Shown: piece by piece, positions 8,901-56,535 of the stretch
How the letters are laid out: every line of letters starts with the position of its first letter
Position numbering within the stretch: position 1 is the first letter of the stretch
Assembly: GCA_000091205.1 (NCBI GenBank)
Contig: AP006486.2
Direction: 5' to 3' (one strand)
Source of the DNA: Cyanidioschyzon merolae
Taxonomy: Eukaryota
DNA length: 64,000 nt
The notes under the pieces: generated by a model
Databases searched by the model: none
Seen by the model: only the letters and a program-made list of their open reading frames with translations
What the model was told of the DNA's origin: nothing
Position numbers and translations under genes: made by a program

Positions 8901-9057
8901 CCCAAGAAGCAAACGAACATATGGAATGACGGTGACGGGACATGTTTCGATTCTCTGACCACCGTATCCAGCTGATCGGTGTATGCTTTGTAGGCTTCAG
9001 TCCGAGCGCGTATGAACGTCCAAACGGATCGTGCTAACGATATCCTCCAGAAGTATA

Positions 9058-9235
9058 CGAGGCCGCTAGAAGTGTACAACGGATACGGTTGCACACAGGC
9101 AAGAGGCATCCATTTTGCAGCGTGTTCATTGAATCGGAAAAAAAGAAGTTACCGAGGCCGCTAGAAGTGTACAACGGATACGGTTGCACACAGGCAAGAG
9201 GCATGCATTGTGCAGCGTGTTTATTGAATCGGATC
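9058..9235. repeat. Local tandem duplication (about 2 x 100 bp)
   Basis: 'gaggccgctagaagtgtacaacggatacggttgcacacaggcaagaggcat.cattttgcagcgtgtt.attgaatcgga' occurs twice head-to-tail; overlapping minus-strand ORFs share 'MPLACVQPYPLYTSSGL'. Confidence 0.7.
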
Positions 9236-15848: not shown

Positions 15849-16799
15849 CGCAAAGCCCGCCTATTTGCTCCAAGACTGAGCGTTTCGTTGTGCGGTGGAG
15901 CCACGGAATCCAACATTTCTATTTGTTCGCTTGTACACGGACATGATAAGTACGATTTACACACACCAGCGCTATGCAACAAGCGAGGCATTCGCATACG
16001 AACGATGTCCAGTATATCGGTCTAAACATCGAAAGATACTCGGTTCGGAGGATATTTAGCGGATGCAGTATGCAACGGTGCACCGCACGAGCGCAGCACA
16101 AGGTCCAGCCATTTCATATGTTTGCGCCGATGTTCCGCTTGAGTCACCAAGGAAAGGAACACCTGGTTTATTCGTGAGCCACTCGGTTGACCACTTACCA
16201 CAGCACGCTTCCTCGGCCGCAGACAGGCAAGCGATCTCGGGTATCGATGCGACTTGCTGAAGACAAAGTCGACCACTTGAATAGGTCCAAACCAGCCAGC
16301 TGCGGAGAGACTGGTCGGTCCCGTTCAGCCAGGCTTTCTTTGCGTGAGTTTCTGAGGTACACCCCACGCCCACCCTACACTGTTGAAGCTATTTGGCATA
16401 ACTTGAGCGTCCCAGTTGGACAGCAGAACACCAATAGACACGCGAAATTGAACCACGGCCGGCCGGGTCTCTGTCACGGAAGCTTGACGCGGTGACTGCG
16501 CTGGGTCTCCTATGAGGAACCGGTCGGACGACCACGAGCGATCCGTTCCACGATAGCACCGTCTGCCAGGACGTCAACAGCTAAGCGAAGCGTGCGCACG
16601 AGCGCATCCAGTCTCTCGTCGAAGCGCTCTAGCTGGGCTTCGAGCACCCGCAGCGCTACCACTGTGCGCTGGTACGCCGCTGCCGCCTGCCGTAGACACT
16701 CCGTTTCTCGTTGTAGCTGCTTCTCCCAACTGGCAGGCGATCCCTCCGTCGTCGACGTCTCCGCTGCCATGGAGAACACGCACACACCGACAACGAATG

Positions 16800-19395
16800 C
16801 CTTTTACAAGAAAAAACGTTGCTGCCGCAAGTGGTATAGTAGTGGCGACAAACGCACCGTAGACAAGGAGTCTTCAGCCGACGTGCAGACGCATCTCAGT
16901 CTTTCTCGACCGGCCACCCACTACTTCTTCCAACATTTTTTCATATAGTTCGAGTTTGAGAGGTTGTCCAACAAAATTCTATCTCGTCCACTCTGGAAGT
17001 CTATTCTCCAGCACCGCACGTCTCCTTATATTGATAGCGGCATTAATGTCTCGGTTCACAAACTCCATCCGTTTCTTGCCATCACTGGATGTACTTAATA
17101 ATGCGAGTAGTCCACGAACTTTCGCTCTCCTTTCCATTTGCTCCTCCGTCAACGGTCCGTGCTTTGCTATTTCCTCAGGGCTCCGCTAATACTTTTCCAT
17201 CTCGACCCTCTGAAGTGTACACCCCAGTTCATGGTGTGTATACGATGTTCGGAAGTCATCTACGGGTATCGTAACGAAACGCCGTGCGCACTCCTTGCAC
17301 GTTTTTGTCGTTGGAGCTGGTGTAATGCCTTTTTTCGACGCCCAGCGCCCTGCTCCATACGCTACTACGAGCCTCTGACTTTCATTCTCCCTCAGGGCGC
17401 TCAACTGATTGAAAAAGTTCGAGAACGCCCGCTGCTTCCCACAATACAAATTCATACGCAAACGAGCCCACCGGGGCTTGGTGGATTCTTTCCACAGGGC
17501 ATCCCAATGAGCAGCGCGAACTTCCATGAACTCCCGAAATGCTTCAAAGTCGGTTCCTCGGCTCGTCACCTCGCTCAAAGCTTCCAGGTGATCCCTCACT
17601 CCTGACTTCTAGGTCTCATTTTGTTTCCTCGCATTCATTATACCGGAATCCCGGTAGGATCTCGCTCTCGGGAACTTGAAAACTCGCATGTCTTTATGAC
17701 GTAAATTGTCGTCGACACTATCTTCCGCACGCTTGGGTACAGCGACGGTTATGATATTTGTGTTTCCGGGGTCCGCGCCAACGACAAAGCCGTTATCGTG
17801 CACTTTCTGTGTTGCACGATCCACCTCCTTCTTTTCTCGATGCTTCGCCGCGTCAACGACAAAGCCGTTATCGTGCACTTCGTGTGTCGCAGGATCCTCC
17901 TTCTTCGTACCTTCATCCTTCGCCACGGGCGGAGCTGGACGATCTGTCTTTAAGCGCCGATAGTGTACAGACATGGCTACTCCATCGTTTTCGATCATCC
18001 CAGTGAATACCTTTCGCTTGCTCACTTTCAGACGTTTGAAATCGACGAAATTCTTCTTCCAGTGCGTCTCCCGGCTTTCGCCGGAGAACTCCTCCCTGCT
18101 GACATTGAACTCCGGACTGATCTCCCTCATGATGCCGTAAAGGACGCCTGAATCGATAGTCACGAAATGTGACCTGATGTTGCACATTGGAACCACGTTG
18201 AAGCGCTTCCCCATTAGGAAAGCCTTCCGCCTCTCCCACTCTTCATTTGTCTCCTCATTCAGCTTCATTTCCGCCTTGCGTTCCAGCTCTCCGTCCAGCA
18301 ACACGAAATAGCGCAGGGCGAGGCGATAGTATCTTTCCTTATCTTTTTTCGACTCTGATAGCTTGTCTGTTGGACTCAGCAGCCCCAGTACCGCACGATG
18401 CTCTTCTACAACCGCACGGATGACAGAAGCTTCATTCGTGCTCTCGTTTGACGCCTTCTCTCCGACGAATTCGATCTCCTGTTCATGCTTGCGATCGTTC
18501 GTGACGCCATTGGTAATCGCCCATTTTCCTTTGCGAGCGATGCCAGGGTACAGCGCAAACACGGCGCGTATCATGAAGCGTTCGAGGTTCATAGTAAAAT
18601 GGTTCTTCAGGTTCCTGATGTACTTCATCGCTCCGTATGTGTAAATGCACCAGTCAATTTTGTATCGAGTACCGTCGAAGCTCTAAAAGGGATGTTTTTC
18701 GTGGAGGGCATGCACTAGCACATTTTCCCTCGGCGCTTCCGCTGTACCAAGCATCAGGTGTCGAATAAAGGTCTTATCGAGAAACCCGTCCGGAATCCCG
18801 ACCGTTTCCATCTGCGCCACGTCGCGATACATCTCCCTCGCCATATGCATCAGTCCTGAAGACGCCTTGACAATACTCTTGGAGTATGACGCAACACTGT
18901 TTTCGATAGCGTCTCGCAGCTTTTCCCTGTACGGATCCTTGATATTTTTAAGAAGACAGACTTTCACCACCTTCTTGTCGCACAGTCGTCTTTCGTGCCG
19001 CCTTCGACGCAGAGCGTCCCACTTTCAGTCCTTCTTCTCTTCCTTTTCTTCTGGACTTGGCACTGTTTTTCTGTTTTTTCTGGCAGCCCGCGACACTGGG
19101 CCTCCAGGATCATCGACTTGCTTTTCATAACTTCCTTTTTTTTGTTTTTTTTTGGAAAACAACGCTCCCTCCAACGCCTCTGATATAAACAGCGAGGAAA
19201 ACTTGAATAAACCAAACTGAGGGTTGAAATATAACTGAACTGAAAAGTACACTCTGCTATGACTTTAACGCAAATGCAACTTGTACTTGAGAGCAACACG
19301 CTCAAGATCGCGATCCCGTTTCCCTTCAACGACGACATGCGCGTCGTATCTCATGCCTGCCAGATATGGAGGTGCGCGTATCGACCGCGATGCCC
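16800..19395 (-). mobile_element. TnpB/Fanzor-like (IS605-OrfB-type, OMEGA nuclease) element, copy 1
   Basis: Minus-strand ORF fragments encode a Lys-rich NLS-like N-terminus (KKKQKKG...RKNRK), RuvC-I '[16 protein letters not shown]' (Asp near 17770), the zinc finger 'CKECARRF...SYTHHELGC', and RuvC-III 'RDINAAINI' (after the in-frame TAG at 17186-17188). About 180 bp of conserved 3' UTR reaches a sharp homology boundary near 16803 shared with three other loci. A subterminal palindrome 'cgacgacatgcgcgtcgt' lies at the 5' end (about 19335-19352). Confidence 0.7.
16980..19252 (-). pseudogene. Fanzor/TnpB-like nuclease gene, disrupted (frameshifts plus in-frame TAG) or intron-containing
   Basis: The coding potential is split over ORFs 19025..19252, 18683..18970, 17609..18628 and 17186..17599, then continues after the TAG to the stop at 16980-16982. 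The frame order differs from copy 3, so at least one copy is frameshifted. Confidence 0.55.
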
Positions 19396-19399
19396 CCTG

Positions 19400-20560
19400 G
19401 CACTGTATGGGCCGAGGGGCCCACCATGCGCACCCGGTTCAGTCGGATATCCATGCAGACCCCAACGCACCGCAAGAACACTTGGATGAAATCGATGCAG
19501 ATTTGGCTGAAGCGACGGTTATGCGAAAACACGCTCGAATCGTTCCCCAGAAATGTAGAAGGCTCCTACCGCCTCAAGCGAACTGTTCGAACAACCATAT
19601 GGGAACGTAGACACGGAACCAGTCGCGCCAGTAACGCCCGCCTTGACTCTATACCGGAACTACAACCTAGCATACACATGCGAGTACTGGTGGGAGGCGC
19701 TGGAGTTCCCGGGACTTGCTCGCGGTATCCAGTGGCTCGCCAAAATCCGCGTTGGTGGTTGCTGACTACCAGCACCTGCGCTAAACCATATAGGAACACT
19801 GGAATCGCAGTGGGAATCACACTGTCCCTGCTGTGGAAACGATAAACCCGAGACGCTGACATATTTAGGCTTACAGTGCGCGCGCTGGAAGCAGGAGCGC
19901 AGCGAGCTCCTTGAAGGACGGCATCAGCCGGGTATCACCGTGATAGTCGAAGGCCGGACACTCACTTTGAGTGCAGCACTGGCAACTGATGGTCCGCTAA
20001 CGGAGCCTCAGCGCTCATTCGTGGCCAACAGACTCACGTGCTACCTTCCAAGCGGAAGGTCTAGCGAATCGGACGCGCACACGGGTTTAGTATGCTTTCT
20101 GCGCCTATCCACTGTGGTGAGCGTCAAGCACAAACCCGCATTGCCAACCGACAACAACGCGTTCCATGCATGATCACGAAGGAGAGAGACGACTCCCAGA
20201 ATATATCTTAACGGCCAAGTGTCTCCAGCGTGTCGTGCCGCGAAGGCAAGCTTGCATCCGCAGACCGTCCGAGCACAAACTGACGACGAGACCCGATTCT
20301 ACGTCGGGTGAAGCACCCCTCGAGCCGACGCCCTCTGTGGTATGGAAAAGCCGTTCTAGCTCGATAAACTCTCTGCCCCAGCGGTTCAAGCGCAAAGGCG
20401 GATATGGAACGGCAGGTATTAGGTACCCACGACAGGACGTATGAGACGATCAGTATCTCCAAGAAGAAGTATAGGTAATGTAACTTGGAGGGAGGGGGCT
20501 TTATGGATATATTACCGCGCGCTGAAGTAAAACGCAAAACAAAAGAGAACGAAAAGAAAA
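19400..20560 (+). mobile_element. 5'-truncated non-LTR retrotransposon (LINE) remnant with a CCHC tail and A-rich 3' end
   Basis: Frame-2 translation around 19820-20173 gives 'HCPCCGNDKPETLTYLGLQCARWKQERSELLEG', the C..C...ET..[HY]L..C..W..ER zinc knuckle typical of LINE ORF2 C-termini. The 3' roughly 270 bp (20290-20560) is homologous to the 3' part of the SINE-like family and ends in 'aaaacgcaaaacaaaagagaacgaaaagaaaaag'. Confidence 0.35.
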
Positions 20561-20599
20561 AGCGCACAATAGGAGAATGCTGGCCCAAGTAAACGTCTT

Positions 20600-23125
20600 A
20601 TCAATAGAAAAATTGCCGTCGTTGAAGGGAAACGGGATCGCGATCTTGAGCGTGTTGCTCTCAAGTACAAGTTGCATTTGCGTTAAAGTCATAGCAGAGT
20701 GTACTTTTCAGTTCAGTTATATTTCAACCCTCAGTTTGGTTTATTCAAGTTTTCCTCGCTGTTTATATCAGAGGCGTTGGAGGGAGCGTTGTTTTCCAAA
20801 AAAAACAAAAAAAAGGAAGTTATGAAAAGCAAGTCGATGATCCTGGAGGCCCAGTGTCGCGGGCTGCCAGAAAAAACAGAAAAACAGTGCCAAGTCCAGA
20901 AGAAAAGGAAGAGAAGAAGGACTGAAAGTGGGACGCTCTGCGTCGAAGGCGGCACGAAAGACGACTGTGCGACAAGAAGGTCGTCAAAGTCTGTCTTCTT
21001 AAACATATCAAGGATCCGTACAGGGAAAAGCTGCGAGACGCTATCGAAAACAGTGTTGCGTCATACTCCAAGAGTATTGTCAAGGCGTCTTCAGGACTGA
21101 TGCATATGGCGAGGGAGATGTATCGCGACGTGGCGCAGATGGAAACGGTCGGGATTCCGGACGGGTTTCTCGATAAGACCTTTATTCGACACCTGATGCT
21201 TGGTACAGCGGAAGCGCCGAGGGAAAATGTGCTAGTGCATGCCCTCCACGAAAAACATCCCTTTTAGAGCTTCGACGGTACTCGATACAAAATTGACTGG
21301 TGCATTTACACATACGGAGCGATGAAGTACATCAGGAACCTGAAGAACCATTTTACTATGAACCTCGAACGCTTCATGATACGCGCCGTGTTTGCGCTGT
21401 ACCCTGGCATCGCTCGCAAAGGAAAATGGGCGATTACCAATGGCGTCACGAACGATCGCAAGCATGAACAGGAGATCGAATTCGTCGGAGAGAAGGCGTC
21501 AAACGAGAGCACGAATGAAGCTTCTGTCATCCGTGCGGTTGTAGAAGAGCACCGTGCGGCACTGGGGCTGCTGAGTCCAACAGACAAGATATCAGAGTCG
21601 AAAAAAGATAAGGAAAGATACTATCGCCTCGCCCTGCGCTATTTCGTGTTTCTGGACGGAGAGCTGGAACGCAAGGCGGAAATGAAGCTGAATGAGGAGA
21701 CAAATGAGGAGTGGGAGAGGCGGAAGGCTTTCCTAATGGGGAAGCGCTTCAACGTGGTTCCAATGTGCAACATCAGGTCACATTTCGTGACTATCGATTC
21801 AGGCGTCCTTTACGGCATCATGAGGGAGATCAGTCCCGAGTTCCATGTCAGCAGGGAGGAGTTCTCCGGCGAAAACCGGGAGACGTACTGGAAGAAGAAT
21901 TTCGTCGATTTCAAACGTCTGAAAGTGAGCAAGCGAAAGGTATTCACTGGGATGATCGAAAGCGATGGAGTAGCCATGTCTGTATAGTATCGGCGCTTGA
22001 AGACAGATCGTCCAGCTCCGCCCGTGGCGAAGGATGAAGGTACGAAGAAGGAGGATCCTGCGACACACGAAGTGCACGATAACGGCTTTGTCGTTGACGC
22101 GGCGAAGCATCGAGAAAAGAAGGAGGTGGATCGTGCAACACAGAAAGTGCACGATAACGGCTTTGTCGTTGGCGCGGACCCCGGAAACACAAATATCATA
22201 ACCGTCGCTGTACCCAAGCGTGCGGAAGATAGTGTCGACGACAATTTACGTCATAAAGACAAGCGTCTGCTGATGTTGTCAAGAGCTAGATATTACCGGG
22301 AATCCGGTATAATGAATGCGAGGAAGAAAATCGTTTCATGGAATTCAGGAATGAAAGATCACCTGGAAGCTTCGAGCGAGGTTACGAGCCGAGGAGCCGA
22401 CTTTGAAGCATTTCGGGAGTTCATGGAGGCTCGCGCTGCTCATTGGGATGCCCTGTGGAAAGAATCCACCAAGCCCCGGTGGGCTCGTTTGCGTATGAAT
22501 TTCTGTTGTGGGAAGCAGCGGGCGTTTTCGAACTTTTTCAATCAGTTGAGCGCCCGGAGGGAGAATGAAAGTCAGAGGCTCGTAGTAGCATACGGAGCAG
22601 GGCGCTGGAAGACCCAAAAGGGACTATGCCAGCTCCAACGACAAAAACGTGCAAGGAGTGCGCACGGCGTTTCGTTACGATGCCCGTAGATGACTTCCGA
22701 ACATCGTATACACACCATGGACTGGGGTGTACACTCCAGAGGGTCCAGATGGAAAAGTATTAGCGGAGCCCTGAGGAAATAGCAAAGCACGGACCTTTGA
22801 CGGAAGAGCAAATGGAAAGGAGAGCGAAAGTTCGTGGACTACTCGCATTATTAAGTACATCCAGTGATGGCAAGAAACGGATGGAGTTTGTGAACCGAGA
22901 CATTAATGCCGCTATCAATATAAGGAGACGTGCGGTGCTGGAGAATAGACTTCCAGAGTGGACGAGATAGAATTTTGTTGGACAACCTCTCAAACTCGAA
23001 CTATATGAAAAAATGTTGGAAGAAGTAGTGGGTGGCCGGTCGAGAAAGACTGAGATGCGTCTGCACGTCGGCTGAAGACTCCTTGTCTACGGTGCGTTTG
23101 TCGCCACTACTATACCACTTGCGGC
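20600..23125 (+). mobile_element. TnpB/Fanzor-like element, copy 2 (inverted relative to copy 1, about 97-98% identical)
   Basis: Same ORF set on the plus strand: 'MKYIRNLKNHF...', RuvC-I '[10 protein letters not shown]' (Asp at 22177-22179), and 'RDINAAINIRRRAVLENRLPEWTR' (Asp at 22899-22901). The 5' end is about 25 bp shorter than copies 1 and 3; the homology boundary is near 20625. Confidence 0.7.
20699..22968 (+). pseudogene. Fanzor/TnpB-like nuclease gene, disrupted
   Basis: Nonsense TAG at 21985-21987 (copy 1 has 'cac' His). A frameshift near 22610 replaces 'ASKKGITPAPTTKTCKECARRF' with 'KTQKGLCQLQRQKRARSA'. The in-frame TAG is at 22751-22753. Confidence 0.6.
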
Positions 23126-23194
23126 AGCAACGTTTTTCTTTCGAAAGGCGTTCGCTAGCAGCCTTCGATGATGCGTTCTTCGGGAACAGCTGCG

Positions 23195-23880
23195 TTTTTT
23201 TTTCTGATGAAAAAATGGTTAGATTCACTATGGATCCCAGAATTCGGAATGGATAATGGCTTTCGGGAAAGCGTCCACGATGAAGCGCCTACCTTCAAGT
23301 TCTATCACGCATACTTCCTCTCGGATATACTGGTCGTTTCGTATATTCTATCGTGCGCCGAGCCTGCCGTGAACACCCGCCGTAGCGCTTATACCACTGA
23401 AGCAGATGCCACACGGAGACAGAACGGCTTTGCCATACCACTGAAGGCATCGACTCGAGGCGTGGTTCCTCCGACGTGGGGTCGGAGTACATAATATATC
23501 TGGGAGCCTGTAAGCTGCGCAGACAGACGCACTGCCTGTGGCAGCGCGGAGCGATCTACAAGGAGTCCACTGTGACCACGGAGACGCCCAGACGCAGCAT
23601 CCTGCTCCAAGTCCCCGAATGAAATGCGTTGCGGACGAGTTGTGCAGGTATCGCCACAAAACCTGCCATTGGAGGAAGCATGAAGCACTAGCTAGCCCCG
23701 AAGACTCGTCCGGCTCGCGGGACCTTCCGCCTAGAAGGTAAAGTTTCGAAGATGCGGAAACTTTCCCCCTTTTCCATGAGTCATATCAAGGTCGAAAGAA
23801 ACTGTTATCGAGTTGCTAGTCAGTTGTTAGTTTCTGTTCTTTCGTCTCTAGGAGAAAGCTCGCTGCTCACGGTCGGGCAC
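23195..23880 (-). mobile_element. SINE-like non-autonomous retroposon, copy A (about 0.68 kb) with A-rich tail
   Basis: Collinear (about 85% identity by eye) with 29325..29990 and, in reverse, 49770..50455. The tail on the element strand is 'catcagaaaaaaa' (plus-strand T-run at 23203-23210). Confidence 0.5.
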
Positions 23881-29183: not shown

Positions 29184-29324
29184 GTCACCCTGCAGCTGAA
29201 AGCACAGGCGAAACGGCGCTTTCCTGAACCGCTACCAGCCACGTAGATACAGCACTTTGAGCATTGAAAAAGTAAGGCTGCGGGCGCCTGCCGCAGTGCC
29301 GGTGCGCTGGCTCTGTTATCCCTT

Positions 29325-29990
29325 TTTTTCGATGACGAAACGTTTATATGGACCGTGGATCCCAGATTGCTGAATCCATACAGGCTTTCGGGAATGTTTC
29401 CATTATGCAGGGCAATACTCCCAAGTTCCGTCACGTATACTTCCTTTCGGATATACTGGTCGTGTTGTACATGCTATCGTTCACAGAGTACCCGCTGTGA
29501 GCGCTCGCCGTAGCGCCTTTACCGCTGGTGCGGATGAAGCGCGGAGACGGAACGGCGTTGGTATGCCCATAGACATGTAGGCTCGAGGCATGGTGCACCT
29601 GATACGGTGTCGGAGTACGTAGTAATTCTGGGAGCCTGCAAACTGCGTAGACAGACCTACTGCCTGCGGTACCGGGAGGCGATAAACTAGGAGTCCACCG
29701 CGACCGGGGTGATATCCAGATGCAGCTTAACTGCCCCTAGTCCTGGAATAAACTGCACTGCGGACGAGTTGCTCAGATCTCACTGAGGCACGAGGCACAG
29801 TGGGGAGCAAGAAGCGCAAGCGCGGCAAACTCGTCCGGCTCACGGGACCTTCCGCCTGGAAGGTAAACTAGCGATAATACGGAAACCTTTTCCCCTTTTA
29901 CCGTCTACGTTAGAGAGGGAAAGAAATCGCTATCTCGTTCCTAGTTCGTGGTTCGTCTCTGTTCTCTTTTCTATCCCACATCAATCTATG
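29325..29990 (-). mobile_element. SINE-like retroposon, copy B
   Basis: Homologous to copy A over its full length ('ggatcccagattgctgaatcc...', 'gtccggctcacgggaccttccgcctggaaggtaaac...'). A-rich tail on the element strand (plus-strand 'ccttttttt' at 29325-29333). Confidence 0.5.
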
Positions 29991-33004: not shown

Positions 33005-33734
33005 AACAAACGACGCCGTACCTCGCTAGATTCTGTGCATGGCGGTGGACCGCAGCATGCTACTGGTGCCGCGCGGTGCTGGCGAACGCTCCGATGTCGT
33101 CGTTAGTCGTTGTCGTTGGAGCAGCAGCTGCGAGGCGCGCAGCGGAAGCAAAACCCGTGGATGCTTCTTGCCCATTTTACTGGATAAAGCAGGAATAGAA
33201 GATCATGCATCGGGCACCGCATGCCCCGAGTTTCTTGTTCGAGTCCCAAAGTCCGCCGGCACGCTGCGCATGTCCATTGTATTGCGGCACAAGTGAGCTT
33301 GCATCCTCATCCACGCCTTGAATCAAACAATGGTTATCATGTTGCAACGGGTTCACAACATGCGTATCACGTACACCACCAGTGTCGCAGATTCGAAAAG
33401 AGACGAACGGCAAGAGGCGTGCCCGCTTCCGCGACTCCAGTTGCGCACCTATACACTGCTGTATAGGAAATGCGGGAATTGTAAAGTATTCTATCCCAGC
33501 TGCTGGCTAGCGTCCTCTATCGATCGTGCCAATGTATCGATCTCAGTGTCTGTCCAGAGACCAGCCAGTTCAGCGGCATCCGCGCTATACCATCGTGCGA
33601 GACGCATCGACCGGGATGGATTCAAGCCCGGAGAGCGCACTGGATGCCTAAAAGAAATCATCGAGTAGACAAATTGAATCGAGGATAGCGGTCTTTGTTC
33701 TAACAAAATAAAATGGCGAGAGAACCCGACCTGT

Positions 33735-34545
33735 ACAGAGCAGTCTGCATCCGGGCCAGAAAAGGCATACGCATCCCAGCCTGCAGTGTCGTGCATTTCC
33801 GATAATCCGAATTACACATAGAGCAGTCTGCATCCCGACCAGAAAAGGCATACGCATCCCAGCCTGCAGTGTCGTGCATTTCCGATAATCCGAATTACAC
33901 ATAGAGCAGTCTGCATCCGGGCCAGAAAAGGCATACGCATCCCAGCCTGCAGTGTCGTGCATTTCCGATAATCCGAATTACACATAGAGCAGTCTGCATC
34001 CCGACCAGAAAAGGCATACGCATCCCAGCCTGCAGTGTCGTGCATTTCCGATAATCCGAATTACACATAGAGCAGTCTGCATCCGGGCCAGAAAAGGCAT
34101 ACGCATCCCAGCCTGCAGTGTCGTGCATTTCCGATAATCCGAATTACACATAGAGCAGTCTGCATCCCGACCAGAAAAGGCATACGCATCCCAGCCGGCA
34201 GTGTCGTGCATTTCCGATAATCCGAATTACACATAGAGCAGTCTGCATCCCGACCAGAAAAGGCATACGCATCCCAGCCTGCAGTGTCGTGCATTTCCGA
34301 TAATCCGAATTACACATAGAGCAGTCTGCATCCCGACCAGAAAAGGCATACGCATCCCAGCCTGCAGTGTCGTGCATTTCCGATAATCCGAATTACACAT
34401 AGAGCAGTCTGCATCCGGGCCAGAAAAAGCATACGCATCCCAGCCTGCAGTGTCGTGCTTTTCCGATAATCCGAATTACACATAGAGCAGTCTGCATCCG
34501 GGCCAGAAAAAGCATACACATCCCAGCCTGCAGTGTCGTGCATTT
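33735..34545. repeat. 83-bp tandem satellite, about 10 units, two alternating variants
   Basis: Unit 'cagtctgcatcc[g/c]g[g/a]ccagaaaaggcatacgcatcccagcctgcagtgtcgtgcatttccgataatccgaattacacatagag' repeats with an exact 83-bp period (ORF starts at 33812, 33895, 33978, 34061, 34144 all 83 bp apart). The array generates the chained 77-aa 'MHDTAGWDAYAFSG...' artefact ORFs. Confidence 0.9.
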
Positions 34546-34699
34546 GCAATGGAGTCACAGGGGCGCTGCCTATGATAGGGAGTGGGGCGCGTTCGTGGAG
34601 CATCCGCGAGGAAATGTTGAGCGCTTCTATTCGCTTTTTTATGGGTGCGCTTCTCAGGGCCCACCATATCGGACACAATCGTAGAGTGGTGAGGGCCTT

Positions 34700-49769: not shown

Positions 49770-50455
49770 GTTGAGTGTGAAATTGCACCTAGGGTGCTGA
49801 CAAGCGACAAGCGCGGCATCGACGACTGCGAGAAAGAACTGAAACGAACCACTGACTAGCAGCTCGATAACAGTTTCTTTCGACCTTGATAGCAATCGAT
49901 GAAATCGGGAAAAGTTTCCGAATCTTCGAAAGTTTATCTTCCAGACGGAAGGTCCAGCGGTCCGGACGAGTCTGCGGGGCTAGTGCTTCATGCTTCCTCC
50001 AGTGCAAGGTGCTATGGCGAGACCTGCGTAGCTCGTCTGCAACACAAGCAATCGGGAAGTAGGGAAAGGAAGCCGCGCCTGGGCGTCGCCCTTGTCGCAG
50101 TGGACTCCTGGTAGATCGGTTCGCCCTGGCGCGGGCTCCCAGAACGATGATGTACTCCGACCCCGTGTCGGATGAGCCCTGCCTCGAGACGACGCCCTCA
50201 GTGGTCTTGCAAAGCCGCTACGTCTCAGTGCAGCATCTGCTTCAGCAGTATATCAGCGCTACGGAAGGTGCTCGCGGCAGGTACTCGGCGCAGGATAGAA
50301 CATACGAAACGACCAGTATATCCGAGACCAAGTATGCGTTATGGAACTTGGAGGTAGATGCCTTATGGCGGACGATTCCCCGGGAGCCATTATCGATTTC
50401 GAGTTCTGGGATCCATGGTCAATTGTCCACGGATTGTCATCGAAAAAAGAAATCG
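49770..50455 (+). mobile_element. SINE-like retroposon, copy C (plus orientation)
   Basis: The reverse complement of 49790-49900 matches the 5' region of copies A and B ('atcaaggtcgaaagaaactgttatcgag.tgctagtcagt'). The 3' end is '...gagttctgggatccatggtcaattgtccacggattgtcatcgaaaaaagaaa'. Confidence 0.5.
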
Positions 50456-50704: not shown

Positions 50705-51389
50705 GATTTTTTTCGAAACTTGAGAATCTCGGGATCTGCTCGAAACCACTGCCTAGGTAAGTCATTTTCTGAATCGGGACTCTGCAGCAACTAGCCGATC
50801 CCCGAAAAATTTACAATTCTTGTTCGCAGCCTGCGCAAGGATACTTGCGTCCCGGCAGACGCTTGTCCCTTCCGCAAGCTCCAACGAGAGTGCCTGGAGG
50901 AATCATGTTACAGTCCGTCAAACATTCTAGGATCACCGGGTGCCGGGCATTTGGATAGTGCAAGGCCGCTGGATGCGTCTTTGCGAATTCTGTACACTCA
51001 CAGAATGGCTTCGCGTTTTGTTGATTCGTATCATATCCAGGCGCACAGTACGACACATGTGAGGAACGTGGACACAAGGCCGGAACCTGTGGAAAGAACG
51101 AATTTCCCGCGACTCCTGGGAGAATCTGCGCGGCATAAGAACAGCTTTGATTTCGCCGCACCACCAACCAGATGAGGACACACGGAGCAGTTGGCCGGCA
51201 GGTTTGTCCCGATCGCCGGATCTTCTTACAATGTAAACTTGGAGACTCGACAAAAAACCTTGCCCCCATTATGCGCTGCAATATATTAGAACAGGAGCCG
51301 TTCGCTAATTGCTCAACCGCGGTCTGTATTCGTTTATCCTGAATAACGATTCATTGGTTCCGGCACACACCTCGAAAGGAGGCACCGCC

Positions 51390-54145
51390 GCCTCCAAACA
51401 CCTCTCGAAAGTTCAACGACGTCACCGTTGTACAGTAGTGGCGAGTGACCCGCCCTAGACAAGAAGTCTCCGACTGCTATGCAGACGCCTCCGCGTCTTT
51501 CTCGACCGGCCAACTACTACTGCATCCAACTTTTTCTCATATACTTCGACTTTGAGAGGCTGTCCAACTATGTTCTCTCTTGTCGACTCTGGAGGTGTTT
51601 CCTCCAGCACTGCACATCGCCTTGTATTGATAGCGGCGATAAAGTACCGGCCCACAAACTCCATCCGTTTCGTGCCCCCGTTGGTTGTACTTACTAGCGT
51701 GAGTAGTCCACGAACTTTCGCTCTCCTTTCCACTTCCTCCTCCGTCAGCGGTCCGTACTTTGCTATTTCCTCAGGGCTCCTCTGGCAATTTTCCATTTCG
51801 ACCCTCTGAAGTGTGCACCCTAGCTCGTGTTGTGTGTAGGAGGTTCGGAACAGATCTATCGGTTTTGCAACGAAAAGCCTTGCGCACTCCTTGAACACCC
51901 TCGTCGTTGGAGCTGGCTTAGTGCCTTTCTTGGGCGCCCAGCGCCCTGCTCTGTATGCTGCTACTAGCCTCTGATTTTCACCCTCGTTCAAGGCGCTCAA
52001 CTGATTGAAAAAATTCGCGAACGCTCGCTACTTACCACAATACAGATTCATTCGCAAACGAGTCCATCGGGGCTTTATATACTCCTCCCACACCGCATCC
52101 CAATGCACAATGCGAACTTCCATGAATATTCCGAAAAGATTCAAAGTCCGCTCCACGGCTCGTCACCTTGCTCATAGCTTCCAGGTGCTTCTTCAGTCCA
52201 GCATTCATATCTCGATTTTCTTCCACTCATTCAATATACCGGATTCTCGATAGTATGTCGCTCTCGAGAACCTCAAAAGGCGCATATCGTTCTGACGAAA
52301 GTAACCGTCAGTAACATCTTCCGCGCGCTTGGGTACAGCGATGGTTACGATATTTGTGTTTCCGGTGTCCCCGCCAACGAAAAAGTCGATATCTTGCACT
52401 TTCTGCGTCACAGGATCCACCTCCTTCTTCTCTTCATGCTTCGCCGCGCCAACCATAACGTGGTTATCCTGCACTTTCTGTGTGGCAGGATCCGCCTACC
52501 TCTCATCTTCATCCTTCACCGCGCCAACGACAAGGTCGTTATCCTGCACGTTCTGTGTCGCAGGTTCCGCCCCCTTCTCATCTTGATCCTTCACCGCGTC
52601 AACAACAAGTTCGTTATTCTCCACCTCCTGCGTTGCAGGATCAGACTCCCCCTTTTCTTCATCCTTCGTGACGGGCGCAGCCGAGGGAGGGACTGGCCGA
52701 TCTTTCTTCAACCACCGATAGTGTACAGACATGGCTACTCCATCGGTTTCGATCATCCCTGTGAATACCTTTTATTTGCTGACTTTCACACGTTTGAAAT
52801 CGAAGATATTCTTCCACAAAGGCTCCCGGATTTCACCGGTGAGGTCCTCCCTGTTAACATTGAACTCCGGACTGATCTCCCTCATGATGCCGTAAAGGAC
52901 GCCTGAATCGATAGTCACAAAATGTGACTTGATGTTGCTCATTAGAACCACGTTGAAGCGCTTCCCCATTAGGACAGCCTTCCGTCTCTCCCATTCTTCA
53001 TTTCTTCCTCAAACAGCTTCATCTCCGCCTTCCGCTCGAGCTCCCGGTCCAGAAACACAAAATACCGCATTATGAGATAATAGTATCTTTCCTTATCTTT
53101 TTTCGACTCTGATATCATATCTCTTGGATTCGCCAACCACAGTACCGCACGTTGCTCTTGTCTAGCCGCACGGATCGCAGAAGCTTCGTTCGCGCTCTCG
53201 TTTACGCCTTCTCTCTGACAAATTCGACCTCATCTTCACGCTTGCGATCTTTCGTGATGGCCTTGATAGTCGCCCGTTTTCCATTGCGAGATAGGCCCGG
53301 GTAGAGTGCAACCACGGCACGTAACATAAAACGTTCGAGGTTCACTGTCAAATGGTCCTTCAGATTCGTGGGGTACTTCATGGGCCCATATGAGTGAACA
53401 TCCCGGTAACCCCAGTATCGAGTACCACTGAAGCTGTAAAAGGGATGTTTTTCGTGGAGGGCATGCACCCGCTCATTTTCCTTCCGAGCTTCCTCTGTGC
53501 CAAGCATCAGCTGACTAACAAAGGTCTTGTCGAAAAAATCTTTCGGAATCTCTACCGTTTCCATGTGGGTCACGTCGCGATCCATCTCCCTCGGCAAATG
53601 CATCAGTCCTGACAACGCGTTGACAATACTCTTGGAGTAAGAGGCCACATGTTTTTCGATAGCGTCTCGCAACTTACCCTGTAGGGATCCTTGATATGTC
53701 CAAGAAGGAAGGTTTTCACCACCTTCTCGTTGTAAAGTCGACTTTCTTGCCGCCTTCGATGTAGGGCCTCCTGCTTTCGGTTCTTCAGCTCTTCCTTTTC
53801 TTCAGGACTCGGCACTGCTTTTTGTTCTTTTCTGGCAGCCGGCGACCTTGGACCTCCAGGATCGTGGGCTTGCTTTTTCATAAATTTCCTTTTCTTGTTT
53901 TTTAAAGATAACGCTCTTTGAACGCTTCTGTTAGATACTGCGCAAAACACTTGACTAGACTTGTTTGAAGCTTGAAACGAAAATGAACAGAAACACTGTA
54001 CTTTGCTAGGACCTGAACGGAAATTTAACTTTTTTCCAGCTGAACAACACGCTAGAGATCATAATCACGTTTCCCTTCAACAGCGGCACGCGCGTCGTGT
54101 CTCATGTCTGTCTGATCTCCGAGGTGCACTCACCGAGCGCGATGC
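51390..54145 (-). mobile_element. TnpB/Fanzor-like element, copy 3 (diverged, nuclease-dead)
   Basis: Minus-strand ORFs 53603..53950 (NLS-like 'KNKKRKFMKKQAHDPGGP...'), 53202..53672, 52496..52756, 52205..52474 (RuvC-I '[17 protein letters not shown]') and 51455..52000 (zinc finger 'TSYTQHELGCTLQRVEMENCQ'). It reads through the position that is TAG in copies 1 and 2, but the RuvC-III motif has degenerated to 'GRYFIAAINT' (Asp->Tyr, tac at 51644-51646). 5' and 3' terminal blocks are homologous to copy 1. Confidence 0.65.
51455..53950 (-). pseudogene. Fanzor/TnpB-like nuclease gene, frameshifted and catalytically degenerate
   Basis: At least two frame changes relative to copy 1 (for example 'DPYRVSCETLSKNMW' versus copy 1 'DPYREKLRDAIENSV') and the RuvC-III D->Y substitution. 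Extra internal ATQ.V.DN.[LF]VV[DG]A repeats. Confidence 0.6.
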
Positions 54146-54837
54146 CTGCACCGCGCGAGACGCCTCAGCGATCGATGAAGGACACGTGTTCGACAACCCG
54201 CCTTGGCACATGCTTGTACGCATCGCACTGCAGCTGAAATAAACTATCGTAGATCGGAAATTGACGTAGAACGATCTCCTGCTATAGACTCTGTCGCTGG
54301 TGCCGACGCTACTGCCCATCGCAGTACCGCCCCGACATACAAGGGGCTGTTGGGGCCTGACACAAAACCCCTCGACGCTTCTATCAAAAGCGTAGCGTTC
54401 TCTGCAGCTTCCGCTTGTGTGGATGAGTTGTGCATCAATCTTCTCGTTAGGAATTTCATTTGTTTTATTGATCGTAACCAAACAAGGTAAGGTAGTATTC
54501 CTGGACTCGTATATGCGTCTGTTCGTGATGCTTGTTATGCATGCCGCACGGACGCTGCAATGAGGAAATGACCTGAATTGTGCTTCGATCTTGCGTCATA
54601 CGCTGGTACTGATGGCAGTTCAAGCCATTTGCATGCTATCGTCTTTGTCCAAGTTATGGTGCTTGCTACTCTCCCGGATCCGGTGATCTTGGTAGAGGCA
54701 TCGCATACATAGAGTGTCTATACTTAGCATTCCATTTGACCGACGCATCCGCCAAAAGCACATACTGTATTCTGATCTACTCTATAAGATTAGTTTCAAG
54801 AGCCTAACCCGAACATCGAGCCCGGAAGCGACAAAGC

Positions 54838-54950
54838 GAACAACGAATGCCTTTGAGAAAAACGCTGCCGCCCGCGGTGTACAATAGTGCCGAATGACCT
54901 GCCCTAGACATGAAGTCTCCAACTGACGTGCAGACGTTTGCAAAAAATAC
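54838..54950 (-). repeat. Solo 3'-terminal fragment of the Fanzor-like element (no ORF attached)
   Basis: 'acaacgaatgcctttgagaaaaacgctgccgcccgcggtgtacaatagtgccgaatgacctgccctagacatgaagtctccaactgacgtgcagacg' aligns with the 3' boundary block of copy 1 (16785-16890) and copy 3 (51400-51480), then diverges. Confidence 0.55.
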
Positions 54951-55527
54951 AGAGCACCGTAGGAAATTTCCTTATGCCTCCTCTACGGTATTCGTCGGAG
55001 AGCTGTGGTGAAGTCCATTTACGATCGTTGTGATTTCTGAGCGCAGCACTGCGGAACCCTTGGCACTACGTACTGGTGAAGTTGTTGTTCGAAATGGTCT
55101 GAGTTCTGCCTAGTTTCTGAAAAGGCATTGAGCGCTTGTGCTAGTTGCGCTGAACGCTAGACAATCTACGGGAGATTTAGCTCGGACTCTGGACAATTGA
55201 CGGGCGATCACTCGTGCCGCTACGCAAAAGAGGTTTTTGACTGGATACGCACACTTACGCGATCGATTCTAGCCGATGACGTGATCGGCAGCTTTCGCAC
55301 CGGAGACGACCTAACCCGAGAAAGTACAAGGCATGTTTGTCTCTGATCCGCTGTACCGGGGCTAAAGAGTAGTTCGCTCACCTGCTGTAAGTAGAGCACC
55401 GTTTCCGCTGGGTACCGAACATGACAGGTGCTTCACAGCTGGACATCGTCACCACTGCCAGCGTCCGCTTCCTTTGGTAATGCAGCGTTCGCCTGTAGCG
55501 CGCCGGCATCGTATGCTGCATCTTCGT

Positions 55528-56535
55528 ATGGGCCCGAAACAGTCGCAGATCGCCGTGGTCACTGGCGCGTCCTCTGGGGTCGGTCTGTATGCAGCTCACG
55601 CTCTGATCAACAAGGGCAACTGGCACATCGTCATGGCATGTCGTGACGTCGACCGGGCGGAGCGCGCAGCAAACAGCGTAAACCTTCCAAAGGACGCCTA
55701 TACAGTGCTGCATTGTGATCTGGCTGATTTCGCCTCTGTACTAAAGTTTGTGAAAGGGCTATCGAGTGTGGCGCGCGTCGATCACCTGGATGCCCTGATC
55801 TGCAATGCCGCAATCTGGCATCCGCGGGTCAAGAAACCGCGTTTCACGGTGGACGGCATCGAGAAAACCATGCAGGTATGCCATCTGAGCCATTTGCTTC
55901 TATGTCGGGAGCTGTTGCCGAAGCTGAAAATATCGCGCGGGCGCATTGTGTTTCTGACGACTCAGACACACTCGCCGGATTCGCTGCCGGGAAAGATCCC
56001 CCCGCAGGCTCGTCTCGGGGATTTATCTGGTCTAGCCGCGGGGCTTGATCCGCAGACGACGGACATGGTAGAAAGTGGCCCGTTTCAGCCCACAAAAGCT
56101 TTCAAAGACGCCAAAGCCGAGAACGTGTTGACAATGAAGGCGCTCAGTGATCGATACGGCCGCGACGGGGTGACCTCTGTGGCGATTTTCCCGGGATGTG
56201 TCGCCGAAAGCAACCTCTTCCGCGAAAAGCGTGGCTGGTTCCGGTACGTATTCTTCCCGATTCTTCAGAAGTATATCACTCGGCAATACGTTCCGAATGA
56301 TGAGGCCGGCCGCCGTGTAGCCGAAGTGGCGACCCAGGGACAGTTCTCGGACGCGGGCTCGTATTGTCAGTGGCGTGGCAAATATACGGAAGGTCGAGAG
56401 AAGACGAAATCGCAGGTTATTGAACCAACGTACGAAATCGACAAGGCAGATCAGCTATACGAACTGAGTCTTGATCTGATCGACCAGGCGTTACGGAGGC
56501 GAGGCCTCAAGTCGACTATCTTGGCCCCTGTCTAA
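55528..56535 (+). CDS. Short-chain dehydrogenase strongly resembling light-dependent protochlorophyllide oxidoreductase (LPOR-like), catalytic Tyr replaced by Phe
   Basis: The ORF spans 55474..56535; the likely start is 55528 ('MGPKQSQIAVVTGASSGVGLYAAHALINKGNWHIVMACRDVDRAERAA'). It is collinear with LPOR: 'ITGASSGLGLATAKAL..G.WHVIMACRD..KAERAA', 'LD.L.CNAA.Y.PTAKEP.FT..G.E..VG.NHLGHFLL', 'GDLRGLAGGL', 'YPGCIA.T.LFREH...F...FP.FQKYIT.GYVSE.EAG.R.A.VV'. The YKDSK catalytic motif reads 'AFKDAK' here (ttc at about 56113). Confidence 0.75.
   Translation: MGPKQSQIAVVTGASSGVGLYAAHALINKGNWHIVMACRDVDRAERAANSVNLPKDAYTVLHCDLADFASVLKFVKGLSSVARVDHLDALICNAAIWHPRVKKPRFTVDGIEKTMQVCHLSHLLLCRELLPKLKISRGRIVFLTTQTHSPDSLPGKIPPQARLGDLSGLAAGLDPQTTDMVESGPFQPTKAFKDAKAENVLTMKALSDRYGRDGVTSVAIFPGCVAESNLFREKRGWFRYVFFPILQKYITRQYVPNDEAGRRVAEVATQGQFSDAGSYCQWRGKYTEGREKTKSQVIEPTYEIDKADQLYELSLDLIDQALRRRGLKSTILAPV

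What the first reader, a model, noticed from the sequence alone, without database searches (positions are those of the whole stretch)
16790..17200. Conserved 3' terminal block with a sharp homology boundary at four loci: candidate omegaRNA scaffold and guide junction
The non-coding stretch downstream of the nuclease stop is conserved among copy 1 (16803-16980), copy 2 (22968-23125), copy 3 (51390-51455) and a solo fragment (54838-54950). The shared core is '...gtRtaRTAGTGGCGA...cgtgcagacgc...tctcgaccggcc...'. Homology ends abruptly and the flanks differ at every locus. In TnpB/Fanzor systems the omegaRNA scaffold ends exactly at the transposon right end and the adjacent unique flank serves as the guide. 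These boundaries therefore predict four different reprogrammable guide sequences.
Basis: inference. Interest (0 to 1): 0.6.

Follow-up and report, generated by a model that had tools for sequence, protein, structure and literature searches.

The report
Right end of dead Fanzor transposons

Summary
The repeat and its sharp 3' boundary are real. They hold in 77 further distinct copies from metagenome contigs. The element is the published Fanzor1 family CMe-1A of Cyanidioschyzon merolae: copy 1 is 75% identical in protein to the published consensus.

The block is not all non-coding. The consensus ORF runs 39 codons past the stop in copies 1 and 2, which is a GAG-to-TAG mutation.

The true non-coding tail is about 70 nt: a short stem-loop, a conserved linker (CACUACUGUAC), and a 15-19 bp hairpin whose base is the element's end. 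The published consensus stops about 10-12 nt short of that end.

Both stems show compensatory changes (0 of 500 shuffles reach the observed values). The tail folds better on the sense strand in 42 of 43 cases.

The layout matches the SpuFz1 omegaRNA: a 75-nt scaffold starting after the stop codon, two stems and a linker, with the guide starting after stem 2.

An omegaRNA scaffold is therefore the likeliest function for the family, but this is inferred. No expression, binding or TAM evidence exists. All window copies carry nonsense or frameshift mutations and degraded hairpins, so four working guides here are unlikely.

The parts
16788..19394 (-). Copy 1 of the CMe-1A-type Fanzor1 element, a pseudogene. 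It has in-frame TAG stops at 18685, 17611, 17188 and 16981, and the start codon is lost.
   Evidence: BLAST self-comparison; six-frame translation and stop list; repaired translation 75% identical over 698 aa to the published CMe-1 protein.
16859..16981 (-). Ancestral C-terminal coding segment inside the 'non-coding' block. It runs from the mutated codon TAG (16981-16979, ancestrally GAG), through 39 codons, to the former stop codon (16861-16859, now TAC; TAG in the consensus).
   Evidence: Consensus ORF from 73-77 copies; published CMe-1 protein ends ...GRRLHVSWRRFV; copy 3 reads through this position; 16 of 73 copies end their ORF exactly at the consensus TAG.
16788..16858 (-). Copy 1 non-coding tail, the candidate omegaRNA scaffold. 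It comprises stem-loop 1 (16858-16841), a conserved linker (16840-16828) and the terminal hairpin SL2 (16827-16788). It is degraded in this copy.
   Evidence: Fold; covariance model hit at 16780-16864, 28.4 bits; family-level covariation.
20614..23162 (+). Copy 2, an inverted and 5'-truncated duplicate of copy 1 at 97% identity. It shares three of copy 1's TAG stops and has an extra stop and a frameshift.
23091..23162 (+). Copy 2 tail: SL1 at 23091-23108 and SL2 at 23121-23162. Copies 1 and 2 diverge inside the last ~10 nt of the SL2 3' arm.
   Evidence: covariance model hit at 23085-23126, 23.9 bits, E = 0.011.
51390..54146 (-). Copy 3, about 80% identical to copy 1. It has frameshifts and stops. 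Its ORF reads through the position of the copy 1/2 stop and ends at the consensus TAG.
51390..51454 (-). Copy 3 tail. SL1 is intact (51454-51440). SL2 is decayed.
   Evidence: Covariance model hit at 51390-51460, 44.4 bits; fold.
54834..54936 (-). Solo fragment: the last ~13 codons plus the tail of another copy. It lies about 690 nt upstream of copy 3, beside a protochlorophyllide-reductase-like gene. The same fragment sits at the same place in three related contigs, so it reflects one old event.
   Evidence: covariance model hits for the window at 54834-54909 (24.6 bits) and for L072 2528-2603 (56.9 bits), L035 1266-1351 and L016 955-1040; shared upstream sequence.
16768..16787 (-). Flank just beyond copy 1's right end, where a guide would lie if an omegaRNA were made. 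The equivalent stretches at the other loci are 23163-23182 (+), 51370-51389 (-) and 54814-54833 (-).
   Evidence: This is an inference from position only. The flanks are unrelated to each other.

Best explanation
[quoted passage not shown] The window therefore comes from that alga or a close relative.

The first ~120 nt of the block is the last 39 codons of the nuclease gene, exposed as 'non-coding' in copies 1 and 2 by a nonsense mutation.

The last ~70 nt is a structured non-coding tail that starts at the stop codon. It consists of a short stem-loop (GGCGNG...CNCGCC), a conserved single-stranded linker (CACUACUGUAC), and a 15-19 bp hairpin whose base is the end of the element.

In active family members this tail most likely serves as the omegaRNA scaffold. 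On this model it is transcribed with or after the Fanzor mRNA and bound by the nuclease, and the read-through into the ~15-20 nt of unique flank supplies the guide, as shown for SpuFz1.

Shown here: identity of the element, the coding overlap, the discrete end, the covarying stems and the sense-strand bias.

Inferred by analogy: transcription, binding and guide use.

In this window the three genes are pseudogenes and the tails are degraded, so these loci are relics. They could act only if an intact copy elsewhere loaded their RNA in trans.
For: Identity of the element:
- Copy 1's repaired translation is 75% identical (525/698) to the published CMe-1 Fanzor1 protein.
- The published DNA consensus tail matches the consensus derived here.
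- Bao & Jurka's description fits: about 3 kb, copies about 80% identical to the consensus, no TIRs, and a 5' 635 bp equal to TE-N2_CMe. TE-N2-like repeats are present in the window.
- A profile of the family aligns to another published Fanzor1 across the RuvC-I, VVAxGxG and IDEFxTS motifs (hhalign probability 95.5%, E = 1.4e-8).

Discrete end: seen in 77 distinct copies.

Structure:
- Covariance-model alignment of 59 distinct tails gives 86.8% of cells paired, against 82.6% in shuffles.
- 14 pairs show changes on both sides, against 8.1 in shuffles. 62 cells show such changes, against 28.4.
- No shuffle out of 500 reaches the observed values. Slid controls give a covariation score of at most 0.078, against 0.176 observed.
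- The inner SL1 pair is GC in 29 copies and CG in 22.
- SL2 variants such as TTCGA/TCGAA, TTCTA/TAGAA and TTTTTC/GAAAGG keep the pairing.

Strand bias:
- The sense strand folds better in 42 of 43 tails, with mean -17.0 versus -11.3 kcal/mol.
- 5 of the 24 pairs have G:U as the commonest state.

Constraint: diversity is 0.15 in the linker and 0.03-0.11 at the SL1 base. That is like codon positions 1 and 2 (0.15, 0.12) and below position 3 (0.26).

[quoted passage not shown] It has two stems and a 6-nt linker, no pseudoknot, and a 15-nt guide starting right after stem 2 (PMC10432273).

Intact tails fold with z = -3.9.
Against: - There are no RNA data of any kind, so transcription, 3' extension into the flank and binding are untested.
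- No Rfam family matches.
- No conserved motif that could be a TAM was found next to the left ends, beyond a variable T-run.
- Helices drawn in the coding overlap show no compensatory change.
- A terminal hairpin on one strand is also what a single-strand DNA transposition signal would look like.
- Among departures from Watson-Crick consensus pairs, G:U (47) is not significantly commoner than A:C (35), p = 0.22. The strand bias therefore rests on the consensus design, and the copies are related by descent rather than independent.
- The covariation alignment was fitted to the model.
- The window tails themselves do not fold better than shuffles (z from +0.46 to -1.49).
- The AlphaFold model was unusable (pLDDT 33.6), so the fold-level link to TnpB/Fanzor rests on sequence motifs and the literature.
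Confidence: 0.65

Rival explanations
1. The terminal hairpin is a DNA-level transposition signal. On this view it is a single-strand right-end structure recognised by an HUH-type or other transposase acting in trans, as in IS200/IS605, IS91 or Helitrons. It could act this way instead of, or as well as, forming part of an RNA.
For: - The hairpin sits exactly at the element's end.
- The family has no TIRs and no detectable TSDs, and its class is unknown (PMC3627910).
- The structure is strand-specific, which fits ssDNA as well as RNA.
- The common 5' boundary also starts with a small palindrome, GCGCTCGGTGAGCGC.
- Chlamydomonas Fanzors ride on Helitrons, and hairpins are general features of Rep transposons (PMC10288648).
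- A dead copy (copy 1 or 2) was duplicated with a near-exact right end.
Against: - No Rep, HUH or any second gene is present in the ~3 kb element.
- There are no Helitron-type TC...CTRR termini, and the hairpin is at the very end rather than 10-12 nt inside.
- About 21% of pairs are G:U, which suits RNA better than DNA.
- The covariance model of the tail finds nothing at left ends.
- SL1 and the conserved linker are not explained by this view.
Confidence: 0.2
2. The hairpins are an mRNA 3'-end element of the Fanzor gene (termination, processing or stability) with no guide function.
For: The structure starts at the stop codon, lies on the sense strand, and is conserved with compensatory changes.
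Against: - Every characterised TnpB or Fanzor uses its 3' end as an omegaRNA (PMC10432273).
- The two-stem-plus-linker layout and size match the SpuFz1 scaffold.
- The linker is conserved in sequence at the level of non-synonymous sites, which suggests specific protein contacts.
- The structure ends precisely at the element boundary.
Confidence: 0.1
3. There is no function. The block is conserved only because the four loci descend from one repeat, and the apparent structure is chance.
For: - Overall diversity of the tail (0.2-0.3) is similar to synonymous sites.
- The copies are related by descent, and the shuffle controls do not correct for that (caveat).
- The window copies do not fold better than shuffles.
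Against: - Compensatory changes occur in 14 of 24 pairs, with the slid controls far lower.
- GC versus CG alternate at one SL1 pair, 29:22.
- Three or more distinct SL2 sequence variants keep a 15-19 bp stem.
- The SL1 base and linker are less variable than third codon positions.
Confidence: 0.05

Closest known systems
CMe-1A / CMe-1 Fanzor1 family of Cyanidioschyzon merolae (Bao & Jurka 2013, PMC3627910; Repbase)
   Same: It is the same element. The protein is 75% identical over its full length. The C-terminus is the same (...GRRLHVSWRRFV) and so is the tail sequence. Copies diverge by about 80%. There are no TIRs. TE-N2_CMe-like 5' modules are present.
   Different: The published consensus ends at ...GAAAGGCG, in the middle of the 3' arm of the terminal hairpin. 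The copies show the element continuing about 10-12 nt to the base of that hairpin. The paper predates omegaRNAs and describes no RNA or terminal structure. The three window copies are not joined to a TE-N2 module at their 5' ends.
SpuFz1 omegaRNA of Spizellomyces punctatus (Saito et al. 2023, PMC10432273)
   Same: [quoted passage not shown] It has a short stem-loop 1, a single-stranded linker and a long stem 2, with no pseudoknot. The variable flank begins right after stem 2. Solo tails without a gene recall the S. punctatus 'ghost' loci.
   Different: There is no sequence similarity. The SpuFz1 element has 30-nt inverted repeats and a CA/TA target, whereas CMe-1A has no TIRs and no recognisable TAM. 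SpuFz1's RNA, binding and cleavage were shown experimentally, and nothing was shown here. The linker is about 11-13 nt here, against 6 nt.
ISDra2 TnpB omegaRNA and the IS200/IS605 right end
   Same: The RNA derives from the 3' end of the nuclease gene and the transposon's right end. It overlaps the ORF's end, and the guide is the flank. A subterminal hairpin could serve both transposase and RNA.
   Different: The TnpB omegaRNA has a pseudoknot and a longer overlap with the ORF. Here the helices drawn in the coding overlap have no covariation support. No TnpA is present.
Helitron 3' terminal hairpin
   Same: There is a strand-specific hairpin near the 3' end, no TIRs and no TSDs. Fanzor1 genes are carried by Helitrons in Chlamydomonas.
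   Different: There is no CTRR 3' terminus, no 5' TC and no RepHel gene. The hairpin reaches the very end of the element.

Membership tests
Fanzor1, family CMe-1A | Encoded protein is homologous to the published CMe-1 Fanzor1 consensus over its full length | tested here: met
   BLASTP gives 525/698 identical (75%), E = 0, for the repaired copy 1 translation. The window copies themselves are pseudogenes.
Fanzor1, family CMe-1A | TnpB-type RuvC motifs: D in GxDPG, the (V/I)DEFxTS glutamate, and D in RDxNAAxN | tested here: met
   Copy 1 has [15 protein letters not shown] (E to D in this copy) and NRDINAAINI. The consensus has VDEFRTS and NRDFNAAINI. A profile of the family aligns to another published Fanzor1 across RuvC-I, VVAxGxG and IDEFxTS (probability 95.5%). 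Pfam gives only a sub-threshold hit to PF07282 (E = 0.094). There is no PDB sequence hit.
Fanzor1, family CMe-1A | RuvC/TnpB fold | tested here: inconclusive
   The AlphaFold2 model built from 30 close homologues has mean pLDDT 33.6. No fold search was run on it.
Fanzor1, family CMe-1A | Element of about 3.2 kb whose 5' 635 bp equals TE-N2_CMe | tested here: inconclusive
   Many related loci have a TE-N2-like module directly upstream of the gene. The window holds three TE-N2-like copies (23198-23843, 29323-29965, 49832-50448), but none is joined to the 5' end of copies 1-3. Those copies instead abut a 1.2 kb repeat or other sequence.
OMEGA-type guide RNA (omegaRNA of TnpB/Fanzor) | Lies at the 3' end of the nuclease ORF and ends at the transposon's right end | tested here: met
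   The tail starts at the consensus stop codon and ends at the discrete homology boundary in 77 copies.
OMEGA-type guide RNA (omegaRNA of TnpB/Fanzor) | Conserved secondary structure supported by covariation | tested here: met
   SL1 and SL2 have 14 of 24 pairs with changes on both sides, and no shuffle out of 500 reaches the observed values. The sense strand is favoured in 42 of 43 tails. Caveats: the alignment was fitted to the model and the sequences are related.
OMEGA-type guide RNA (omegaRNA of TnpB/Fanzor) | Transcript extends about 15-20 nt into the unique flank | not testable with these tools
   No RNA data are available.
OMEGA-type guide RNA (omegaRNA of TnpB/Fanzor) | Bound by the nuclease and directs TAM-dependent cleavage | not testable with these tools
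   This requires biochemistry.
OMEGA-type guide RNA (omegaRNA of TnpB/Fanzor) | Conserved target-adjacent motif next to the left end | tested here: inconclusive
   Thirteen distinct TE-N2-type left ends begin with a T-run of variable length, and nothing is conserved upstream of it. The alternative 5' boundary (ATCGCGCTCGG...) abuts at least four unrelated sequences.
IS200/IS605-like or Helitron-like (HUH, single-strand) transposon | Encodes or is accompanied by a Rep/HUH transposase | tested here: not met
   The only long ORF in the ~3 kb unit is Fanzor. The neighbouring 255-aa ORF (L001 4832-5599) has no Pfam match. A transposase elsewhere in the genome cannot be excluded.
IS200/IS605-like or Helitron-like (HUH, single-strand) transposon | Helitron termini: 5'-TC...CTRR-3' with the hairpin 10-12 nt inside the 3' end | tested here: not met
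   The ends read ...GGCGTTGATGGTGC, with the hairpin base at the terminus and no CTRR.
Rfam families | Match to any curated RNA family | tested here: not met
   Only chance-level hits, with E at or above 0.097, all far below the gathering scores.

The most novel reading that the evidence does not exclude
CMe-1A may be a eukaryotic single-strand, hairpin-ended transposon that keeps the ancestral IS200/IS605 design: a TnpB-like gene plus a right-end hairpin that doubles as omegaRNA stem 2, but with no transposase gene of its own. It would then be mobilised either by an unrecognised enzyme in trans or by Fanzor-guided breaks and repair alone. Its right end may also be a recurrent site of chromosome rearrangement. 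Four diverged contigs share more than 2-3 kb upstream of one copy, yet their homology breaks exactly at the right end.
Probability: 0.1. Interest if true: 0.75.

Novelty: new member of a known kind. Interest (0 to 1): 0.33.

Why it matters
The finding gives a concrete, testable omegaRNA model for a Fanzor1 family that has been catalogued since 2013 but never characterised. The model is a ~70-nt scaffold with two stems and a conserved linker, and the guide would start after ...GGTG(C/T).

It also corrects the published right end of the element by about 10-12 nt.

The host is a thermo-acidophilic alga, and some copies in environmental populations keep open reading frames. The family could therefore be a source of a heat-tolerant compact nuclease.

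For genome annotation, the lesson is that the 'non-coding' conserved block is mostly decayed coding sequence. The loci in this window are relics, not active guides.

Tried and rejected
- **Whole 400-nt and 165-nt consensus folds (RNAalifold).** These gave almost nothing: -6.0 and -3.2 kcal/mol, with only the SL1 stem. MAFFT puts the two hairpin variants in different registers. A covariance model was needed to align them.
- **Long-range 9-bp helix.** CAGUAGUGG in the coding part could pair with CCACUACUG in the linker. Two local helices in the coding overlap could also be drawn. None has compensatory support, and variation gives mismatches. They are neither supported nor excluded.
- **Suppressed synonymous variation in the last 39 codons.** There is no clear signal. 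Diversity at codon positions 1/2/3 is 0.20/0.16/0.24.
- **Rfam.** No family matched.
- **Pfam, PDB sequence and PDB profile searches.** There was only a sub-threshold PF07282 hit.
- **AlphaFold2.** The alignment was too shallow and the model had pLDDT 33.6, so no fold search was run.
- **The 1.2 kb repeat between copies 1 and 2 as a 5'-truncated LINE with a poly(A) tail.** It has discrete ends at both sides in several loci, and its ORF has no Pfam hit. The idea was dropped as unproven.
- **Left end as a direct repeat of the right-end hairpin.** By eye, about 19 of 28 positions match between the TE-N2 start (TTTTTCGATGACAAAACGTTTACATTG) and the SL2 3' half. The covariance model finds nothing at left ends at E up to 1. 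This is weak.
- **The solo fragment as a recurrent left-end structure.** It is a single old event at one locus shared by four contigs.
- **TAM search at left ends.** It was inconclusive.
- **Exact-protein look-up of a host gene to name the organism.** Nothing was on record.
Full report
**What is in the window.** A self-comparison shows three copies of a ~2.6-2.8 kb repeat and one fragment.
- Copy 1 (minus strand, 19337->16794) and copy 2 (plus strand, 20614->23154) are inverted and 97.0% identical over 2544 nt.
- Copy 3 (minus strand, 54146->51427) is about 80% identical to copy 1.
- A ~100-nt fragment (minus strand, 54936->54840) matches only the last part of the repeat.

On the gene strand each copy encodes a long TnpB-like protein with [10 protein letters not shown](E/D)FRTS and NRD(F/I)NAAINI motifs. 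All three are broken.
- Copy 1 has four in-frame TAG stops, at 18685, 17611, 17188 and 16981.
- Copy 2 shares three of them and adds a frameshift and another stop.
- Copy 3 has several frameshifts and stops.

Copies 1 and 2 were therefore duplicated after the gene had died.

The surrounding genes are eukaryotic and uninterrupted: a Nop14-like ORF, and a protochlorophyllide-reductase-like ORF at 55474-56535 (my reading of its translation; it was not run against any family library). This points to an intron-poor alga.

**Identity.** A protein search found 46 relatives, nearly all from JGI metagenomes. A pattern scan of metagenome contigs found 349 coding relatives, of which 80 loci were fetched.

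The literature search led to Bao & Jurka 2013 (PMC3627910). It describes Fanzor1 family CMe-1A of Cyanidioschyzon merolae as follows: about 150 copies, each about 80% identical to a ~3 kb consensus, no TIRs, TSDs undetermined, class unknown, and a 5' 635 bp equal to a second repeat, TE-N2_CMe.

The paper's supplement holds the CMe-1 protein (734 aa) and the DNA consensus.
- Copy 1's repaired translation is 75% identical to that protein over 698 residues.
- The ~620-bp repeats I had found at 23198-23843, 29323-29965 and 49832-50448 begin with the first bases of the published consensus, so they are TE-N2-like.
- A profile of the family aligns to another published Fanzor1 through the RuvC-I, VVAxGxG and IDEFxTS motifs (probability 95.5%).

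The element is a known one. The window is from C. merolae or a close relative.

**The observation.** I extracted 77 distinct 3' ends and aligned them.
- Column identity is 80-99% up to '...TCGAAAGGCG' and then falls to the random level.
- Diversity is 0.62-0.76 beyond the end.
- The flanks of the four window loci are unrelated.

The sharp boundary is therefore real.

The block, however, is not simply non-coding. The consensus reading frame continues past the stop of copies 1 and 2 for 39 codons and ends ...GRRLHVSWRRFV-TAG. This is exactly the C-terminus of the published protein. Sixteen of 73 copies end their ORF at that TAG. In copies 1 and 2 the codon at 16981-16979 is TAG where copy 3 has GAG.

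**The tail.** After the consensus stop come about 70 nt. Folding each tail showed three parts.
- A short stem-loop lies immediately after the stop: GGCGNG-loop-CNCGCC.
- Next comes a conserved single-stranded stretch, CACUACUGUAC.
- Last is a long hairpin of 15-19 bp, for example CACCGUUGGCGUCGUUCGA-CUU-UCGAACGGCGUUGAUGGUG in L028.

The lower part of the long hairpin differs between sub-lineages on both arms in a complementary way. This is why sequence identity drops about 10 nt before the real end. Copies at different loci share the same 3' arm but have different sequence after it. The arm therefore belongs to the element, not to the flank. The published consensus stops at ...GAAAGGCG, inside this arm.

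**Tests of the structure.** I built a covariance model from eight clean tails.
- It found every tail and the solo fragments, and nothing at left ends.
- On the resulting alignment of 59 distinct sequences, 86.8% of cells pair, against 82.6% in shuffles.
- 14 of 24 pairs have changes on both sides, against 8.1 in shuffles. 62 cells have such changes, against 28.4.
- No shuffle out of 500 reaches the observed values. Sliding the partners gives covariation scores of 0.078 or less, against 0.176 observed.
- One SL1 pair is GC in 29 sequences and CG in 22.

The alignment is fitted to the model and the sequences are related, so these numbers are supportive rather than formal proof.

The sense strand folds better than its complement in 42 of 43 distinct tails (-17.0 versus -11.3 kcal/mol). 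Five of the 24 pairs have G:U as their commonest state. Later departures from Watson-Crick pairs are not biased (47 G:U versus 35 A:C), as expected for decaying dead copies.

The linker and the SL1 base are less variable (0.15 and 0.03-0.11) than third codon positions (0.26).

Helices that can be drawn in the coding overlap, including a 9-bp long-range pairing with the linker, show only one-sided changes and mismatches. No Rfam family matches.

**Comparison with what is known.** For SpuFz1, Saito et al. 2023 (PMC10432273) report the following.
- It is made of two stems and a 6-nt linker, with no pseudoknot.
- Stem 2 is long and partly dispensable.
- The guide of about 15 nt begins at the first base after stem 2.
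- 'Ghost' loci carry the RNA without the gene.

The CMe-1A tail has the same position, size and order of parts. It shares no sequence with SpuFz1, and the element has no inverted repeats.

It remains an inference. Nothing here shows transcription, binding or a TAM. The left ends gave no conserved motif beyond a variable T-run.

**Rivals.** A strand-specific hairpin at the very end of an element without TIRs or TSDs is also what a single-strand transposition signal looks like, and the two roles can coexist as they do in IS200/IS605. Against a purely DNA role:
- there is no Rep-type gene;
- there are no Helitron termini;
- G:U pairs are abundant;
- SL1 and the conserved linker would be left unexplained.

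A plain mRNA 3'-end element, or no function at all, fits the data less well.

**The four loci in this window.** Their tails score 24-44 bits against the model, versus 80-98 bits for the best copies. They do not fold better than shuffled sequence (z from +0.46 to -1.49, versus -3.9 for L028 and L079). With dead genes and eroded hairpins they are relics. They could matter only if an intact copy elsewhere in the genome loaded their transcripts.

The solo fragment is one old event. The same fragment lies at the same place, next to the reductase gene, in three diverged contigs.

**Verdict.** The finding is real, well explained and mostly ordinary. It is the right end of a catalogued Fanzor1 family. 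There are two modest additions: a specific covariation-supported scaffold model, and a right terminus about 10-12 nt beyond the published consensus.

Noticed in passing
window 51390-57441 versus L072, L035, L016: Four contigs about 17-21% diverged from one another share the whole stretch from the reductase-like gene, through the solo fragment and Fanzor copy 3, to the right end. Beyond the right end none matches the window and none matches another of the four. Possible explanations are rearrangement breakpoints at right ends, lineage-specific insertions there, or assembly joins.
   Followed up: partly
window 19396-20612 (also L001 4403-5600, L019 6734-7940, L079 2169-3316, L042 2501-3060): A ~1.2 kb repeat fills the gap between the heads of copies 1 and 2. 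It has discrete ends, one of them A-rich. It occurs next to Fanzor 5' ends in both orientations and also elsewhere. In L001 it carries a 255-aa ORF with no Pfam match. Its first ~300 nt is about 70% similar to TE-N2.
   Followed up: partly
window 23198-23843 (+), 29323-29965 (+), 49832-50448 (-): Three copies of a ~620-bp repeat match the start of the published CMe-1A consensus, so they are TE-N2_CMe-like. One begins only ~40 nt after the right end of copy 2. Each starts with a T-run and a small hairpin, for example TTTTTTC-TGAT-GAAAAAA.
   Followed up: partly
window 17773-17927, 22023-22177, 52369-52681; L001 7151-7450: A 75-nt (25-aa) tandem repeat lies inside the Fanzor ORF just upstream of the GADPG motif. 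Its copy number varies: two units in copies 1 and 2, about four in copy 3 and in P0001, and fewer in the published consensus.
   Followed up: no
window 18685, 17611, 17188, 16981 and the same codons in many metagenome copies: Premature stops recur at the same codons in many diverged copies (after ...RPPE, ...EMEKC and ...ENFxG). Most are TAG or TAA derived from CAG, TGG, CAA or GAG by transitions. This could reflect a limited set of one-step stop codons or a directed C-to-T mutation process.
   Followed up: no
window 54117-54146, 19365-19394; about 20 loci: The common 5' boundary of the Fanzor segment starts with a small palindrome (ATCGCGCTCGGTGAGCGC). It abuts at least four different upstream sequences: TE-N2, the 1.2 kb repeat in either orientation, and others. 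The Fanzor segment may therefore be a module that recombines with different 5' parts.
   Followed up: partly
window 33654-34617: A tandem array of an 83-bp unit, with about 11 units at 97-100% identity.
   Followed up: no
window 9049-9233: Two adjacent 90-nt direct repeats, 93% identical and spaced 95 nt start to start.
   Followed up: no
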